Source: a virus
Taxonomy: Duplodnaviria; Caudoviricetes
DNA length: 64,000 nt
Reading direction: 5' to 3' (one strand)
IMG/VR virus record: IMGVR_UViG_3300024916_000029
Span: 661-64,660 of that record
Positions within the stretch are counted from its first letter, which is position 1. Each line of letters opens with the position of its first letter. Positions 49,596-54,200 of this stretch are shown piece by piece. A program made the position numbers and the translations under genes. Under the pieces are notes generated by a model. The model was not told the origin of the DNA. It made no database searches and worked only from the letters and a program-made list of their open reading frames with translations.

Positions 49596-49997
49596 CTACC
49601 TTGCATCCTCAACCTTGCGGGCGGTGCTCGGGTCGAAATGGAATCCGCCGGGCATCGCATCGGCGGTTTGATTTGCATGTGCCGCTGGCGCGACGTGCTC
49701 GGCTCTCTTGGCTCTTTCCATGTACGGCGAAACCACGACGATGACCAGGACGACCCAGGCGACACCGAAGAACCCGGCGGTCCATGCGGACTTAGCCCGC
49801 TGACGGGCCACTGCAAGGTAGATGCCGTAAGCCACGCTGGCGACGATCAGCGGAGACAGCCAGGTGGTCAGCCAGGTGAACACCGGCTGGGTGTCGTACT
49901 TGATGAGCGGGTTGCCCAGGGCAGCCAGCATCATGGCGCCGAGGTGAACGACTGGCCGACTGAAACGAGAGGCCTGCTTGGATGTGGTTGCTTCCAT
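49596..49997 (-). CDS. Antisense moron: 3-TM inner-membrane protein with C-terminal FDPSTA motif; candidate superinfection exclusion
   Basis: RBS AGGAGG; three hydrophobic segments; tail GGFHFDPSTARKVEDAR. Confidence 0.82.
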   Translation of the reverse strand: MEATTSKQASRFSRPVVHLGAMMLAALGNPLIKYDTQPVFTWLTTWLSPLIVASVAYGIYLAVARQRAKSAWTAGFFGVAWVVLVIVVVSPYMERAKRAEHVAPAAHANQTADAMPGGFHFDPSTARKVEDAR

Positions 49998-50249
49998 GGT
50001 GTCCCTCCTGCAGGGACTGTAGCAGGCGGCGCGCACGTTACCTGAACTGGAAAACGGCGTTTTGACCTCCGCCTGAACCACATATTTCGAAATGCGCACC
50101 AAAACGGTGCTTTTCGACCCTGGAATCTAGGTTGCGGCTAGGTAGAGTGAGGGCTCCCGGAATCAGCCAAAACCCCGCCGATTCCGCACACCACAAGATC
50201 CGTGTGGTGGCGCAGACTCGACGCAACTAGACAGGTAGGGAGGCGGTAG

Positions 50250-50423
50250 ATGGATGGGAACGACCAACGCGGGCCGGAAGCAGTGGCAGTGCGCGTGTGC
50301 GTGATCTATGTGAAGCATGGGTTGGAGCAGAGAACGCCATGGTTCTCAAACCCGGAGCGTGCGCGGCGAGCGTTGGAGGTATTGCGCCGACGCTATGGAG
50401 CGGCAGTACTGCTGCGGGATTGA
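50250..50423 (+). CDS. 57-aa protein (MDGNDQRGPEAVAVRVCVIYVKHGLEQRTPWFSNPERARRALEVLRRRYGAAVLLRD)
   Basis: Manual translation; RBS GGGAGG; hairpin-rich leader; below the ORF-track cutoff. Confidence 0.62.
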   Translation: MDGNDQRGPEAVAVRVCVIYVKHGLEQRTPWFSNPERARRALEVLRRRYGAAVLLRD

Positions 50424-50583
50424 TTGGGTGTCGAATCACGACTTTGATCGAGTGTGGCGAGGAATATCGGTCCTGAAGAACCCCGAACATGTCATAGGCA
50501 ACTCCCAAAACAAAGCCGGTGGCCAGCAGAGTTGGTTCAGCCGGTTGCACGAACTATGCGGGCTCCATCAGGCGTGCGAAGCG

Positions 50584-51192
50584 TCAATCGCAGACTATCG
50601 TGTTGCCAGATCGCGAGCACTGCCGTCCATCGTTCCTGCGCATGATTGCGCCACCTGTGTACGTTCCGCCCCTGGTGTCTATGCAGCCGCTTGCGTTGCA
50701 GCCCTTAACCTTGAATTCCTCCGTCTCGGGTTCTGGCTCGGGCCCACGCTTGCGAAGCTCTTCCCGGTACTTTGCCGCACGCTCTGCACGCGCATTCGCG
50801 TCCCATCTCCCGCCGTTGTTGGTGATGCTTCCAGCCGACGTTGCCGCGTTCTCCCGATCCTTGCGCGACTGCCAATCGTTACCGGCTTGCTGCACCTGCG
50901 GATGGGCCTGCTGTTGCCTTATCCGGCGCTCCCTCTCGACGAACTCGCGCTCCTGCTCCGCAATGAGGCGATCCTGTTTGCGGCTCTCGGCTTCGTAGGC
51001 CTGCTCCCGCTCCTGCAGGATTTCTTCCTGCGTGCGCTTGCGCAGAACCTGGCCACCTGACTGACCAACATCACATGGGCGGTCCGAGAAAATGAGCTTT
51101 CCGGTGGCGTCCTTGCACCGGTGAACTTGTGCATTCGCGATACCGAATCCCAAAGCAAGAAGAGAAATTAAAACGGCCTTCTTCCAGTACAT
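50584..51192 (-). CDS. Antisense moron: exported DUF4124-domain protein with an ejection-protein-like segment
   Basis: Signal peptide MYWKKAVLISLLALGFGIANA; VHRCKDATGKLIFSDRPC (DUF4124); RBS GGAGGGG. Confidence 0.85.
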   Translation of the reverse strand: MYWKKAVLISLLALGFGIANAQVHRCKDATGKLIFSDRPCDVGQSGGQVLRKRTQEEILQEREQAYEAESRKQDRLIAEQEREFVERERRIRQQQAHPQVQQAGNDWQSRKDRENAATSAGSITNNGGRWDANARAERAAKYREELRKRGPEPEPETEEFKVKGCNASGCIDTRGGTYTGGAIMRRNDGRQCSRSGNTIVCD

Positions 51193-51231
51193 AGTGCCCC
51201 TCCGTGATGTGAATGTACAGCGCCGGACCGG

Positions 51232-51268
51232 CATAGGGTTTCTCTCCAGAGCCTTGCGGCGGGACAGT
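51232..51268 (+). promoter_or_regulatory. Late promoter motif copy 6 (giant gene, near-leaderless)
   Basis: CATAGGG-N24-GACAGT, then 5 nt to ATG 51274. Confidence 0.72.
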
Positions 51269-51273
51269 GGGGG

Positions 51274-54200
51274 ATGGCAATTGAATTCGACCCCACTTCC
51301 GCGAAACCTACGGAACCATCCAAGTTCGCATTCGACCCCGACACGGCGACGCCGGACGCTGGGCCAAAGCGTTCGCTTGCCGACTACGCCCGCGACGTTG
51401 CTGCGACAGCCGTAAAAGGCGCCATTGGTGTGCCCGAGGCCATCGTCGGCCTGGCGGACATCCCCACGGGCGGCCGGGTGGGCAAGTTCCTGGAGAACGA
51501 GGGCGGCTCCGTGGGCTTCCGGCCCAAGCAGGCCAAGGAGCTTGTCAACGACTGGCACTCCGATGCCACCAAGGAGGCGCAGCGCAAGTTCCAGGAAGCC
51601 GACGGCATCGTAGACAAGACCGTCACGGCGCTGCAGAACCCCAGTCTGATCGCCACCGCCGTGGGCGAGTCCCTGCCTTCCATGGGCCTGGGCGGCGTGG
51701 CCGCGCGCGGCCTGATGGCGGCCACCAAGCTGGGCCAGATGGGCGCCAAGGGCGCGGCGCTTGCTGGCGCCGCAGGCGAGGGCGTGACCATGGCCGGCTC
51801 CGCGGCCGAGCAAATCCGCCAGGAAACCCCGGACGGCCTGCTGACGCCAGGCCAATCCGCACTGGCCGGCGCGACCGGCATTGTGGGCGGCGCCGTGGGC
51901 ACGCTGGGCGGCCGTGTCGCGCAGAAGCTTGGCATCGGCGACGTGGACACCATGATCGCGCAGGGCGCCAAGGGCATGGCGGACGAGGCTGGCTCTGCCG
52001 GCGCGCGCGCAGCCACCAATCTGCTGGTGCAGCAGCAGGCCGTGAAGGGAATCCCGCGCCGCGTGATCGAGGGCGCGATTTCTGAGGGCTTCCTGGAGGA
52101 GCTGCCGCAGTCGCTGGCCGAGCAGATTTTCCAGAATCTGGCCCTGGGCAAGGATTGGCTGCAGGATGTCGATTCGGCCGCCGTCATGGGCGTGCTGTCT
52201 GGTGCGGCCATGGGCGGCGCCGCCGCCGGCTACCACGGTGCGCGCCAGCCCGCCCCAGGCGCTGACCTCGCGCCGCCGGCCGGCGAACCGGGCCAGCCCG
52301 TGCCGCCGCCAACCGGTGACGCGTCGGCCGCGCCGAGCGCCGGAATGGACCGCGTGCGCCAGGCTTACACGGACCAGCTGGCCGCACTGCAGGCGCAGGA
52401 GCAGGGCGAGCAGCCGGGCCCGCAGACGACGCCGCCCGATGGAGCCGCGATGCTGGCCCAGCAGCAGGCCGCTGCCGCCGCTCGCCGCCAGGTTGAGCTG
52501 GACGCATCGCGCGCCGTGACCGGCCCCGACGACGAGATTTTCCAGTCCACGGGCGTCGCCGAGCGCCCTTCTGTGCGCATGGGCCTCGACCCCGCCGCTG
52601 GCCCGCTGTCGGCTGGCGCGGCGCTGGCCGTGGATACCGGCGTGACCGGGCAGATGCAGCAGGCCGCAGCGCAGGCACAGGCCGCCGAGCTGGCCGCCAA
52701 GGAGGGCCAGAAGCCCGCCGCACCTACTCAAAAACAAGAGCAACAACCGCAAGCGCAGCAAGGCGTAGACCCTGAAACCGGCGAGATTCCTCCGGGCGGA
52801 CACATGGCCGGCTGGTCCGACGCCCAGCTGTCCGACGCCTTCCGAGGCGCGCAGACGCGCGACGTGCGTATGCAACTTGCACAGGAGCTGTCGCGTCGCC
52901 GCGCCGAGCGTGAGCAGCTGGACCAGCAGGCGCTGCAGGCCGAACTGGACGCCGAGCAGGCCGGCACCGTGCCTGGCGCCGAGCGCGCCGATGGCGCTTT
53001 CGCTTCCATGACCGAGGACGCCGGCCCCGTCCCGGCCGATCTTTCCGTTCCCCTCACCACCCAAGGAGTGACCGATGGCCCTCAAGCCGCCCAAGCCCAG
53101 CAAGATCGCGCGCAACCGCCGCAAGTCGGAGCAACGCCAGCAGACGCAAGCGCAGCACCAGATGCTCAAGGAAGCGCAGGCTCGCAAGGCGCTGTCGCAA
53201 CCACGGGGGTAGCCGATGGCAGCCCCTCGACTGCGAACCCTGGAGCGCAAGCAGCGGCAGCGCCTGGTGCGCAAGCAGCGCCGGCAGCAGAAACGCGCGA
53301 ACAGCGCGCCCAGCGCGTCGCCAGCGCGGGCGATGCCTGGACCCGCATGCCTGCCGCTGAGCGCCAGGCTGTGGCCCAGCGCACGGACTTGAAGCCCATT
53401 GCACGGAAGAACGTGCACGGCGCTGCCTGGGGCAGCCTCAACGGCGACATTCAGCGCAAGCTAGCAGATGCAATTTCCCCTCCGCAGCAGCCCGCGGCGC
53501 TTATGCAACAAGCGCAGGCAGCTACAAAATCAAGAGCGGATGCGCGGGAATCCGCCGCAGCACAGTCGGCGCCCGCCGCAGTTGCCACTGAGCCGGCCGG
53601 GCCTGCAGAAGCTCCTGCTGCCGAGCCCGCGCCGCAGTCGCCAGCACAGGCTCCGGCCGCAGTGGAAGAACTGGTTCAAGAATCGCCTGCAGCCGTTGCT
53701 GATAAAGCGCCGGCAGCTACAAAAAGTGCAGCAGATGCGCCAGCGAAGGAGCAAGGCGCTGTGCCTGCTGCCGCAGCTCCGAAGAAGCCGCGTGGCGTCT
53801 TGGCCAAGAAGGCCGAGGCGGAAGCGAAGGCGCGCGCCGACTACTTCGCGCCAGGGAACGTCGTGCAGGGCTACAGCGGCCATGACCGCGTGATCGCATA
53901 CCAGCCGGCGGGCGAGGATGGGCAGTGGAGCGTGACCGTGCGCGCCGTGGAGAAGCAGGGCGACGCCTGGGTGGACAAAGCAGGGGAGCGCGAGCGCGTG
54001 CACGGCACGCAGCCGGATGCCAAGGCCTTGAAGGCGGGCCCCGTGGCGCGCGGCAGCGCCATCGACGAGCCTGCAGAAGCCACGGGCAGCAAGGAGACTG
54101 TGGAGCAGCCTGCCGCTGTAGCTCAGCCAAAGAAAGACGCCGAGCAACGCTCTGCAGCCAAACAGAACATCACCGACTTCGGCGAGAAGATCGGCGGTGC

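What the first reader, a model, noticed from the sequence alone, without database searches (positions are those of the whole stretch)
49596..51348. Membrane moron tail FHFDPSTA matches the tandem N-terminal motif of the giant protein (IEFDPTSA / FAFDPDTA)
The giant protein begins MAIEFDPTSAKPTEPSKFAFDPDTATP, with two copies (51286-51303 and 51331-51348). The 133-aa moron ends GGFHFDPSTARKVEDAR (49620-49637) after a flexible Ala/Pro linker. By the positive-inside rule (basic N-terminus, RQRAK loop, three TMs) this tail is periplasmic. A plausible receptor is the small C-terminal module of the 678-aa protein (FEKGAVYVDGQGRRARYTGGGWEP), which might normally recruit the giant protein. That pairing is inference, and a short motif alone is weaker evidence than the 34-aa match.
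Basis: partly seen in the sequence, partly recalled or inferred. Interest (0 to 1): 0.75.

Follow-up and report, generated by a model that had tools for sequence, protein, structure and literature searches.

The report
Prophage membrane protein mimics injected-protein peptide
A small prophage membrane protein carries on its tail the same short peptide that begins the phage's giant injected protein, and this match recurs with many different peptides in related prophages, which suggests a decoy that blocks infection by related phages.

Summary
FDP.[ST]A occurs three times in six frames of the window (about 0.04-0.11 expected): twice at the giant protein's N-terminus and once in the moron tail.

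- **Tandem leader.** Of 114 scored giant-protein homologues, 104 start with a tandem pair of a short motif that differs between relatives.
- **Third copy.** Of 26 dereplicated loci with a gene island between the 678-aa-like gene and the giant gene, 19 carry a third copy of their own motif. It lies on the opposite strand, near the C-terminus of an envelope protein convergent with the 678-like gene.
- **Carriers.** They belong to at least three unrelated scaffolds. One is the window moron's 3-TM family, where 66 of 111 tails hold catalogue motifs, against 5 reversed and 0 shuffled.
- **Receptor candidate.** The motif type covaries with the C-terminal mini-domain of the 678-like protein.

Best reading (about 0.6): periplasmic peptide decoys that block assembly of the DNA-injection conduit, that is, allele-specific superinfection exclusion. 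Binding, topology and exclusion are untested. No known family matched, and my searches found no description in print.

The parts
47557..49593 (+). 678-aa virion-module protein, in the position of a T7 gp15 / P22 gp20-type ejection protein. PHROG 11341, function unknown.
   Evidence: ORF; PHROG hit E 4.8e-65; homologues directly abut the giant gene in F116-like phages
49516..49590 (+). C-terminal module FEKGAVYVDGQGRRARYTGGGWEPA of the 678-aa protein, the candidate receptor for the FDP peptide
   Evidence: Same module in L045, which has the same FDP allele. Module class covaries with allele. AF2 models three short strands at pLDDT 80-83 after a linker with pLDDT under 50. Hypervariable cassette: identity drops from 0.83-0.89 to 0.17-0.33.
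49596..49997 (-). 133-aa membrane moron (family A), convergent with the 678-aa gene; the two stops are 3 nt apart
   Evidence: Orthologues at 51, 50, 42 and 23% identity. Profile search found 117 representatives. No Pfam, PHROG, PADLOC or NCBIfam hit.
49695..49961 (-). helical membrane core of the moron, residues 13-101
   Evidence: AF2 with 41-sequence alignment: mean pLDDT 84.8, helices 13-26, 31-34, 38-63, 65-70 and 72-101. Positive-inside counts.
49599..49694 (-). flexible Ala/Pro linker and tail of the moron, residues 102-133
   Evidence: modelled as coil, pLDDT 56-64
49620..49643 (-). tail motif FHFDPSTA, the third copy of the giant protein's N-terminal motif
   Evidence: Cognate score 26 against a maximum of 12 for 43 non-cognate motif pairs.
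50584..51192 (-). second island gene: DUF4124 protein with a hydrophobic, signal-peptide-like N-terminus and a segment similar to residues 445-507 of the 678-aa protein
   Evidence: Pfam DUF4124 E 2.3e-6; BLASTP 28/63 identical, E 1e-12
51274..60990 (+). 3238-aa giant polyvalent protein (LPD1, MuF_C, C-terminal PLxRFG domain), probably a packaged and ejected virion protein
   Evidence: Pfam; NCBIfam NF032893 E 7.6e-236 at residues 2567-3226; literature passages on H66 gp60 and phi24B gp47
51286..51303 (+). motif copy 1 (FDPTSA)
51331..51348 (+). motif copy 2 (FDPDTA)
51355..51750 (+). conserved N-terminal domain that follows the variable leader
   Evidence: 47-89% identical in the 62 related loci. 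Identity 0.84-0.97 after the first ~45 residues, against 0.19 within them.

Best explanation
The window is a provirus of an F116-like podovirus. Its giant polyvalent protein is packaged in the virion and ejected. The protein begins with two tandem copies of a short peptide (here [IF]xFDPx[ST]A) that serves as an allele-specific docking tag.

The tag's partner is most likely the small C-terminal mini-domain of the preceding 678-aa ejection protein. After ejection into the periplasm, the two tags would tie neighbouring 678-aa subunits together to build the DNA conduit, as the N-terminal 'molecular tape' of T7 gp16 does with the C-terminal regions of gp15.

The 133-aa moron is an inner-membrane protein expressed independently of the late operon. 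It displays one copy of the same tag on a flexible periplasmic tail. That tail would occupy the mini-domain of an incoming phage's 678-like protein without cross-linking it, so injection by phages of the same tag type would abort. This is superinfection exclusion by peptide mimicry.

Tag, mini-domain and decoy diversify together in an arms race, and some decoy proteins carry several tag types in series.

Shown here: the three-way sequence covariation, the sharply localised hypervariability, and the recurrence on unrelated scaffolds that look like envelope proteins. Inferred: binding, periplasmic topology, expression in the lysogen, and exclusion.
For: 1. The tandem N-terminal pair is near-universal and hypervariable. 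Of 114 scored homologue leaders, 104 have a best 8-mer pair score of at least 25, against 2 of 114 shuffled leaders (sequences). F116-like phages have KPWE[ES]F twice instead.

2. Third copies. Thirty loci have an island (gap of at least 300 nt), which is 26 after dereplication. The own allele ranks 1st of about 40-45 motif pairs in the last 45 aa of the convergent ORF in 15 loci. It ranks 2nd in 2 more, where the top hit is another allele in the same tail. In L016 and L053 the copy is internal. That gives 19 of 26. L006 and the later-fetched L078 are further hits. No convincing third copy appeared in loci without an island.

3. Carriers are unrelated scaffolds: the moron's 3-TM family, a second membrane family, and a family with a signal-peptide-like N-terminus.

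4. In the moron family, 66 of 111 tails hold at least one catalogue motif at score 28 or more (94 hits in all). Reversed tails give 5 and shuffled tails 0. FDP-type motifs occur in 13 members.

5. Protein-level conservation: 90 of 175 identical positions use different codons.

6. Motif class against 678 C-terminal module class: 64 concordant pairs, permutation mean 9.7 and maximum 27, 0 of 10000 permutations reaching the observed value. Variability is confined to the module and to the first ~45 residues of the giant protein.

7. Compartment: positive-inside counts; shared domain; helical core plus low-confidence tail.

8. Literature. H66 gp60 is a virion structural protein with T7 IVP-D homology (PMC4819975, passages). 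phi24B gp47 is in the virion proteome and is proposed to be an ejection protein (bioRxiv 10.64898/2026.04.10.717836, passages). T7 gp16 N-terminal residues 157-228 cement the gp15 C-terminal regions in the periplasm (PMC8954989, passages). [quoted passage not shown]

9. Contigs of two RNA libraries, at 99% identity or more, cover 49581-49988 (the moron) and 50259-51141. This is compatible with transcription but does not prove it.
Against: - No binding, topology, expression or exclusion datum exists.
- Seven of 26 dereplicated island loci lack a cognate third copy. L018 and L025 have other small ORFs. L026, L044/L046 and L049 have no convergent frame of at least 60 aa next to the 678-like stop. 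L009 and L027 are mismatched.
- In L009 and L027 the tail matches the adjacent 678 module class, not the giant protein's motif. So module and giant tag can be mismatched in a locus. Under this model such a phage should be defective, unless docking is dispensable.
- Module and tail coding DNA lie within about 5-100 nt of each other, so their association may partly reflect linkage. The module and the giant N-terminus are adjacent in island-free genomes.
- I defined the motif and module classes by eye and regex, and the permutation tests ignore phylogeny.
- Multi-allele tails could be relics of successive cassette swaps rather than selected breadth.
- If the module-tag complex is pre-formed in the virion and survives ejection, a periplasmic competitor could not act.
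- The residues just after TM3 are mildly positive (net +0.44).
Confidence: 0.6

Rival explanations
1. The tag is real and the moron is a competitor, but the partner is not the 678-aa module. Both the giant protein's N-terminus and the tails would bind a third, unidentified partner, such as another virion part (tail nozzle, portal) or a host envelope protein. The covariation with the module would then reflect physical linkage within one recombination cassette.
For: The module and the tail motif are encoded within about 5-100 nt of each other, and the module abuts the giant N-terminus in island-free phages. In L009 and L027 the giant tag differs from the module class. I tested only the 10 kb upstream for covarying parts, and only the 678-like protein systematically.
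Against: Among 11 near-identical Delftia-type backbones, the sharp identity drops are at the module and the giant leader; the middle of the 678-like protein also varies moderately. Motif classes are too unlike one another (FDPxTA, WWKxG, SEIDxFL, PFxGxLD and others) to fit one conserved host pocket. The pairing persists across islands of 0.4-5 kb.
Confidence: 0.2
2. The tail-bearing envelope proteins serve the phage's own cycle rather than exclusion. For example, they might hold or recruit the tag's partner at the membrane during assembly, lysis or release, or prime the resident cell envelope.
For: The island lies inside the late structural and lysis region, with endolysin at 61288-61902. I found no sigma-70-like promoter for the moron (0 found). 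Expression in the lysogen is not shown.
Against: The genes are on the opposite strand to the late operon. They are absent from F116-like phages and from about half of related loci, so they are dispensable. They sit on three unrelated scaffolds, often with tags of foreign allele types that the resident phage does not use. One scaffold has a signal-peptide-like N-terminus, which would place the tags outside the cytoplasm, where assembly occurs.
Confidence: 0.12
3. There is no function. The tail motif is a hitch-hiking remnant, for example an inverted duplication of the giant gene's 5' end made when the island inserted, or a chance match.
For: The motif is short. In the window only 6 residues define it, and the pattern was chosen after seeing it.
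Against: Half of the identical residues use different codons. The match recurs in 9 motif classes on three scaffolds. Family tails give 66 of 111 members with hits, against 0 for shuffled tails. A later-fetched genome gave another hit (L078). Tails carry alleles foreign to their own locus.
Confidence: 0.03

Closest known systems
P22 SieA superinfection exclusion (Leavitt et al. 2024, PMC10883804; abstract read)
   Same: A prophage-encoded inner-membrane protein of a podovirus blocks DNA injection by the same phage type. [quoted passage not shown]
   Different: The moron matches no Pfam, PHROG, PADLOC or NCBIfam model. I did not compare it with SieA directly. The abstract reports no mimicry of an ejection-protein peptide. 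Here the putative specificity element is a short tail peptide that copies the target's own docking tag, occurs in many alleles, and can be stacked. Function here is inferred, not tested.
T7 DNA ejectosome: gp16 N-terminal 'molecular tape' binding gp15 C-terminal regions (review PMC8954989; passages read)
   Same: The N-terminal part of the large, last-ejected protein binds the C-terminal part of the preceding ejection protein in the periplasm to assemble the tunnel. The gene order is the same.
   Different: I tested no sequence homology of the 678-aa protein to gp15. IVP-D homology of the giant protein's relatives comes from the literature only. The tag here is a tandem 6-9-residue motif that is hypervariable between relatives. 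The partner is a ~25-residue terminal mini-domain.
Polyvalent proteins of phages (Iyer et al. 2017, PMC5512222; passages read) / PLxRFG domain-containing proteins
   Same: The giant protein has LPD1 and MuF_C domains and the C-terminal PLxRFG domain. It lies among virion genes, and such proteins are predicted to be injected.
   Different: The passages I read do not mention the tandem variable N-terminal leader or its copies on envelope proteins.
Other envelope-located exclusion proteins that target DNA entry (HK97 gp15, T4 Imm and Sp, Ltp of TP-J34). Recalled, apart from the Ltp listing.
   Same: Small prophage or phage membrane proteins or lipoproteins act at the injection step.
   Different: As far as I recall, none is described as displaying a copy of the target's own peptide. 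I did not test this here.

Membership tests
Polyvalent / PLxRFG giant virion protein (the giant ORF) | C-terminal PLxRFG domain (NCBIfam NF032893) and LPD-type domains | tested here: met
   NF032893 E 7.6e-236, residues 2567-3226. LPD1 E 4.6e-17 and MuF_C E 4.6e-10, both above the Pfam cut-offs.
Polyvalent / PLxRFG giant virion protein (the giant ORF) | Packaged in the virion and ejected | not testable with these tools
   Only by analogy: H66 gp60 is structural and phi24B gp47 is in the virion proteome.
Known superinfection-exclusion or defence protein families (Pfam, PADLOC, PHROGs, NCBIfam models) | Sequence match of the moron to a curated model | tested here: not met
   0 families in Pfam, PHROGs, PADLOC and NCBIfam.
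SieA-like functional class (works like it; not a homologue) | Inner-membrane location | tested here: inconclusive
   Predicted only: helical hydrophobic core with pLDDT above 90 and positive-inside pattern.
SieA-like functional class (works like it; not a homologue) | Expressed from the prophage; blocks DNA injection of cognate phages | not testable with these tools
   The only hint is that contigs from RNA libraries cover the moron, which is not proof of transcription.
Moron family A (3-TM tail-display family defined here) | Conserved core (..ARH..GM...ALANPLI....P...W...W...L..A....GLYALFF..RAK.AWP..F..LAWV) followed by a variable tail | tested here: met
   Alignments A1 and A2. Profile search: window protein E 5.7e-58; 117 representatives.
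Moron family A (3-TM tail-display family defined here) | Tail carries a motif from the repertoire of giant-protein N-terminal tags | tested here: met
   Window tail HFDPSTAR scores 31.5. 66 of 111 members have at least one hit at score 28 or more, against 5 reversed and 0 shuffled.
T7 gp15-like (IVP-C) ejection protein (the 678-aa protein) | Sequence or structural homology to gp15 / P22 gp20 | not tested
   Only synteny (it precedes the IVP-D-like giant gene) and PHROG 11341 of unknown function. Hardies et al. report that IVP-C diverges too fast to detect.

The most novel reading that the evidence does not exclude
F116-like and related podophages use a hypervariable 'lock and key' code to assemble their injection conduit: a tandem N-terminal peptide on the giant ejected protein, and a C-terminal mini-domain on the preceding ejection protein. 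Prophages exploit this code with a modular immunity system. Unrelated envelope scaffolds display one or several key peptides in the periplasm as monovalent chain-terminating decoys. The set of tags on a lysogen's decoys would then define which phage 'ejectosome types' it excludes. That would make it a combinatorial, sequence-readable exclusion specificity, and short peptides should reprogram it.
Probability: 0.45. Interest if true: 0.9.

Novelty: new variant of a known kind. Interest (0 to 1): 0.85.

Why it matters
If the reading is right, exclusion specificity between temperate podophages could be read directly from sequence, by matching the tag on the giant protein to the tags on resident decoys. 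A 6-9-residue peptide would be enough to predict it or to change it.

It would also identify a docking contact in a poorly understood class of ejectosomes, those with giant polyvalent proteins, and explain why that contact is hypervariable. Finally, it would give a clean natural example of peptide mimicry as an anti-phage mechanism. About 15 natural allele pairs are available as ready-made specificity controls for binding and plating experiments.

Tried and rejected
- **Complex prediction.** Complex prediction with 678-aa residues 590-678 plus giant residues 1-34 gave no verdict (score 0.10, mark 0.34). This is no evidence either way.
- **Word-indexed homologue search.** For the moron it found only the protein itself. 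The profile search later found 117 representatives, so the moron is not an orphan.
- **tblastn of the moron against phages.** Only a chance hit, E 0.8.
- **More FDP/M1-type loci.** Searches with the 53-aa 678 C-terminus in viral and metagenome contigs, and with a degenerate DNA pattern for the module, returned only contigs I already had. The FDP allele therefore has just two full loci, the window and L045.
- **Comamonadaceae sample.** The giant protein's conserved domain matched in 7 of 401 genomes. Six regions were fetched. L073 repeats L026. L076 and L077 lack a tandem leader.
- **RNA libraries.** Parts of the stretch without contig cover (48115-49390 and 51274-52600) say nothing.
- **First regex attempts** to find the 678-like gene failed and were replaced by tblastn.
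- **One script timed out** and was rerun vectorised.
- **Promoter scan.** No sigma-70-like site for the moron. This is uninformative for this kind of host.
- **Rejected ideas.** A capsid-targeting or protease-site reading of the tag does not fit copies on proteins that look secreted or membrane-anchored. An origin by inverted DNA duplication does not fit the codon differences.
- **Supplementary files** of the cited papers could not be seen. Virion proteome tables there might show whether 678-like proteins are virion components.

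
Full report
**What is in the window.** The window lies in a 64.7-kb provirus record. It carries terminase, portal, major head protein, a virion structural protein and an endolysin. At DNA level the region is distantly similar (about 70%) to Pseudomonas F116-like phages of the genus Hollowayvirus. The genes of interest are:
- the 678-aa protein, 47557-49593(+);
- a 133-aa ORF, 49596-49997(-), with GGAGGG 5 nt before its ATG;
- a DUF4124 protein, 50584-51192(-);
- the 3238-aa giant protein, 51274-60990(+), with LPD1, MuF_C and a C-terminal PLxRFG domain.

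In F116-like phages the homologue of the 678-aa gene directly abuts the giant gene.

**The observation.** FDP.[ST]A occurs exactly three times in the six-frame translation, at the coordinates given. Expected counts are 0.11 from residue frequencies and 0.035 from dinucleotide shuffles, and 0 of 200 shuffles reached 3. Because the pattern was defined after the fact, I sought independent evidence.

**The giant protein's leader is a tandem, hypervariable tag.** A search with residues 1-130 found 501 homologues, of which the best 120 were listed. Their conserved N-terminal domain (ARD..A..KGAI.VPE..VGLADIPTGG...) is preceded by a short leader that nearly always holds two copies of one short motif. 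That motif differs between relatives: FDPxTA, WWKxG, [FI]SYEDA, PFxGxLD, NPFxDPxYG, KPWExxY, SEIDxFLxDAP, ILTDExIG, NWxDFxP, TWGxxDK, NWLDxxS, DKFGG, DWEKG and others. Of the 120, one lacked the anchor and 5 had leaders under 24 aa. Of the remaining 114, 104 have a best 8-mer pair score of at least 25, against 2 of 114 shuffled leaders. F116-like phages carry KPWE[ES]F twice. Among 11 closely related Delftia-type loci, identity is 0.19 over the first 40 alignment columns and 0.84-0.97 afterwards.

**A third copy recurs on a convergent envelope protein.** I fetched 62 related loci with 10-kb flanks and took each locus's own tandem 8-mers. I dropped L050 and L051, which have no leader in the locus, and L014, L060 and L062, which have no clear pair. 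I then scanned all six frames of each of the 58 loci kept (57 fetched plus the window).
- In 22 of 58 loci the best hit outside the giant gene was a third copy of that locus's own motif. It was always on the minus strand, and in nearly all cases a few residues before a stop codon. A 23rd, L024, appeared once its 8-mer was corrected.
- The ORFs that carry it converge on the 678-like gene, with the two stops about 5 nt apart.
- In a stricter test on the last 45 aa of the convergent frame, the cognate motif ranked 1st of about 40-45 distinct motif pairs in 15 of 23 dereplicated loci. It ranked 2nd in 2 more, where the first rank was another allele in the same tail. For the window the cognate score was 26, against a non-cognate maximum of 12.
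- In L016 and L053 the copy is internal, because the protein has an extra C-terminal domain.
- Counting also the island loci with no convergent frame (L026, L044/L046, L049), 19 of 26 dereplicated island loci have a cognate third copy.
- The seven misses are L009, L018, L025, L026, L027, L044/L046 and L049.
- Loci without an island showed no convincing third copy.
- L006 is a further hit; its 678-like gene was not found by tblastn, so it is outside the count of 26. A genome fetched afterwards, L078, gave a fresh hit: leader PFSYDDA/GFSYEDA and tail RPFTYEEAAGTKP.
- The similarity is at protein level. Of 175 identical positions in 16 loci, 90 use different codons. That argues against a recent inverted duplication.

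**The carriers.** There are at least three unrelated scaffolds.
- *Family A*, the window moron's family. L006, L021, L016 and L023 are 51, 50, 42 and 23% identical to it in the membrane core, and their tails match their own giant proteins.
- *A second membrane family*, seen in L004 and L053.
- *Family B*, with a signal-peptide-like N-terminus (ADYATCLLDKLPG...), seen in L007, L008, L011, L029, L031, L038, L040, L045 and L047, and in a short form in L019.

L045 carries the same FDP allele as the window, but on a family B protein with tail ...FQFDPSTARRVSP. Family B tails often hold two or three different alleles in series. L007 is an example, with DRFGG, FQFDPSTAR and GPWRKYQ, the last being the locus's own. 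None of the carriers matches a Pfam, PHROG-with-function, PADLOC or NCBIfam model.

A profile of family A found 117 representatives among 1.84 billion proteins, 84 of them at E of 1e-10 or better. I scanned the tails against a catalogue of 87 distinct tandem pairs. At score 28 or more, 66 of 111 tails hold at least one catalogue motif (94 hits), against 5 for reversed and 0 for shuffled tails. FDP-type motifs occur in 13 members; P0157, for example, ends ...FEFDPSTARRVEEPK. So FDP is conserved in a subset of orthologues, and elsewhere the tail changes with the phage's tag.

**The candidate receptor.** The last ~25 residues of the 678-like protein form a cassette that covaries with the tag class:

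| Tag class | C-terminal module of the 678-like protein | Loci |
|---|---|---|
| FDPxTA | FEKGAVYVD..G.RA.[YW].G..WE.A | window, L045 |
| SEIDxFL | ...LS.E.R...L..LGY | 8 |
| DWExG | VNGK.AVWDG.KW | 3 |
| xSYEDA | G.VY.T..G..RW.GK.F | 5 |
| PWxx[YF] | GY[RK][FY]KGG[ND]P....W.KV | 6, plus the F116-like phages |
| NPFxDPxY and NxFDxFD | AL[KR]A[ND]P..AA.FD..[YF]G.GA | 9 |
| PFxGxLD | GKPVYED | 4, plus L075 |
| TWGxxDK | KAEYDALPKG | 2 |

Over 44 dereplicated loci there are 64 concordant pairs, against a permutation mean of 9.7 and a maximum of 27; 0 of 10000 permutations reached the observed value. Classes were set by eye and regex, and phylogeny is ignored.

In the Delftia-type set, identity of the 678-like protein is 0.83-0.89 just before the module and 0.17-0.33 within it. 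An AF2 model of the last 92 residues, built on a 20-sequence alignment, has a mean pLDDT of 70. It shows a beta domain, a linker with pLDDT under 50, and a terminal three-stranded mini-domain at pLDDT 80-83.

There are two exceptions, L009 and L027. There the tail matches the module class while the giant protein's tag belongs to another class. This shows that module and tail travel together, as they are nearly contiguous, and that mismatched loci exist.

**Compartment.**
- The AF2 model of the moron (41 sequences, pLDDT 84.8) has helices at 13-26, 31-34, 38-63, 65-70 and 72-101, and a low-confidence coil at 102-133.
- Across 41 members the TM2-TM3 loop has K+R 2.46 (net +2.29) and the TM1-TM2 loop is net -0.5. 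The 15 residues after TM3 are net +0.44. By the positive-inside rule, an established principle, the tail would be periplasmic.
- Independently, tails of the same kind sit on proteins with a signal-peptide-like N-terminus. The HY..IYAAHPDADA domain of those proteins also follows TM3 in long family A members (E 2e-13).

**How it most likely works.** The literature supports these points about relatives.
- The giant protein's relatives are virion proteins with T7 gp16 (IVP-D) homology and are thought to be ejected (PMC4819975 passages; phi24B preprint passages; Iyer et al. passages).
- In T7 the N-terminal 'molecular tape' of gp16 stitches together the C-terminal regions of gp15 in the periplasm (PMC8954989 passages).

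By analogy, which is inference, the tandem tag of the giant protein would bind and bridge the C-terminal mini-domains of the 678-like protein as the conduit re-forms after ejection. A resident envelope protein that displays one copy of the tag would cap these mini-domains and abort injection by phages of that tag type. [quoted passage not shown] The hypervariability, the strict pairing, and the stacking of foreign tags on decoys all fit an arms race between related temperate phages.

Contigs from two RNA libraries cover the moron almost exactly (49581-49988) and the DUF4124 region. This is compatible with transcription but proves nothing.

**What remains open.** Binding, topology, expression in the lysogen and exclusion are untested, and the single complex prediction gave no verdict. 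Linkage could explain part of the module-tail association, and the partner could be another protein. Seven of 26 island loci have no cognate copy.

I found no description of the tandem leader or of its copies on envelope proteins. The searches were 'PLxRFG' (5 papers, 4 listed, none relevant by title or abstract), superinfection exclusion with ejection protein or SieA, superinfection exclusion with decoy or mimic (titles and abstracts of 15 listed) and polyvalent protein.

**Verdict.** The finding is real and non-random, and it is the visible tip of a widespread three-part covarying system. The mechanism is a well-supported inference, at about 0.6. In kind it is a new variant of injection-blocking superinfection exclusion, and its proposed principle, display of the target's own docking peptide, appears to be undescribed.

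Noticed in passing
window 50584-51192(-) and 47557-49593(+): The second island gene (DUF4124, hydrophobic signal-peptide-like N-terminus) shares a segment with residues 445-507 of the 678-aa protein: 28 of 63 identical, E 1e-12. Its C-terminus also has a G.YTGG string like the 678 C-terminal module. The same island may therefore hold a second mimic of an ejection protein.
   Followed up: partly
L007, L008, L011, L038, L045, L047; proteins P0148, P0164, P0172, P0173, P0197: Many tails carry two to four different tag alleles in series, and the locus's own allele is usually the last one. This may be selected breadth of exclusion, or relics of successive cassette swaps next to the 678 module.
   Followed up: partly
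L009 and L027: In these loci the tail and the adjacent 678 C-terminal module belong to one allele class (PW type, WWK-like type), but the giant protein's leader belongs to another ([FI]SYEDA). They may be recombinants that are defective, or evidence that the docking is dispensable.
   Followed up: no
L008, L010, L011, L017, L025, L026, L040, L045 and others, about 60 nt upstream of the giant start: Island-bearing loci share a conserved stretch just before the giant gene's start. Read in the giant's frame it appears as ..P[RC][IL]GF[DG]...........ES[GA]GM. The window lacks it. It could be a promoter or leader that restarts late transcription after the island.
   Followed up: no
L014, L060, L076, L077: These giant homologues have no tandem tag. 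They have a different, longer leader (..IQEA...PEL..LSD..A..V..Q.YYPD..), and tblastn found no 678-like gene upstream.
   Followed up: no
proteins P0127, P0128, P0131, P0132, P0136, P0215, P0218, P0233, P0242; P0142, P0149, P0174, P0177, P0183: Long forms of the moron family add one of two extra domains after the tag: a 'W..EVA.IE..QTWWV..G' domain, or the HY..IYAAHPDADA domain shared with family B. Their function is unknown.
   Followed up: no
window 49645-49666(+): A terminator-like hairpin (7 pairs, 6 of them G-C, then a T-rich run) lies about 50 nt after the 678-aa stop, inside the tail-coding end of the convergent moron.
   Followed up: no
window 47557-49593(+): The 678-aa protein holds repeated short strings: RGF[QA]P or ARGF[AD] seven times, and DGG[LM]V or NGGLV. 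It also has a conserved GPGTGTSDD...LSNGE[FY] region shared with the F116-like homologues. PHROG 11341, function unknown.
   Followed up: no
window 54670-55017(+), giant residues 1133-1248: Sub-threshold NCBIfam match to CLCA_X (132.6 bits, cut-off 260) in the region holding the first HExxH-like string.
   Followed up: no
window 49581-49988 and 50259-51141: Contigs of two freshwater-sediment RNA libraries from two studies match these island stretches at 99% identity or more, so a near-identical element occurs in that habitat.
   Followed up: partly
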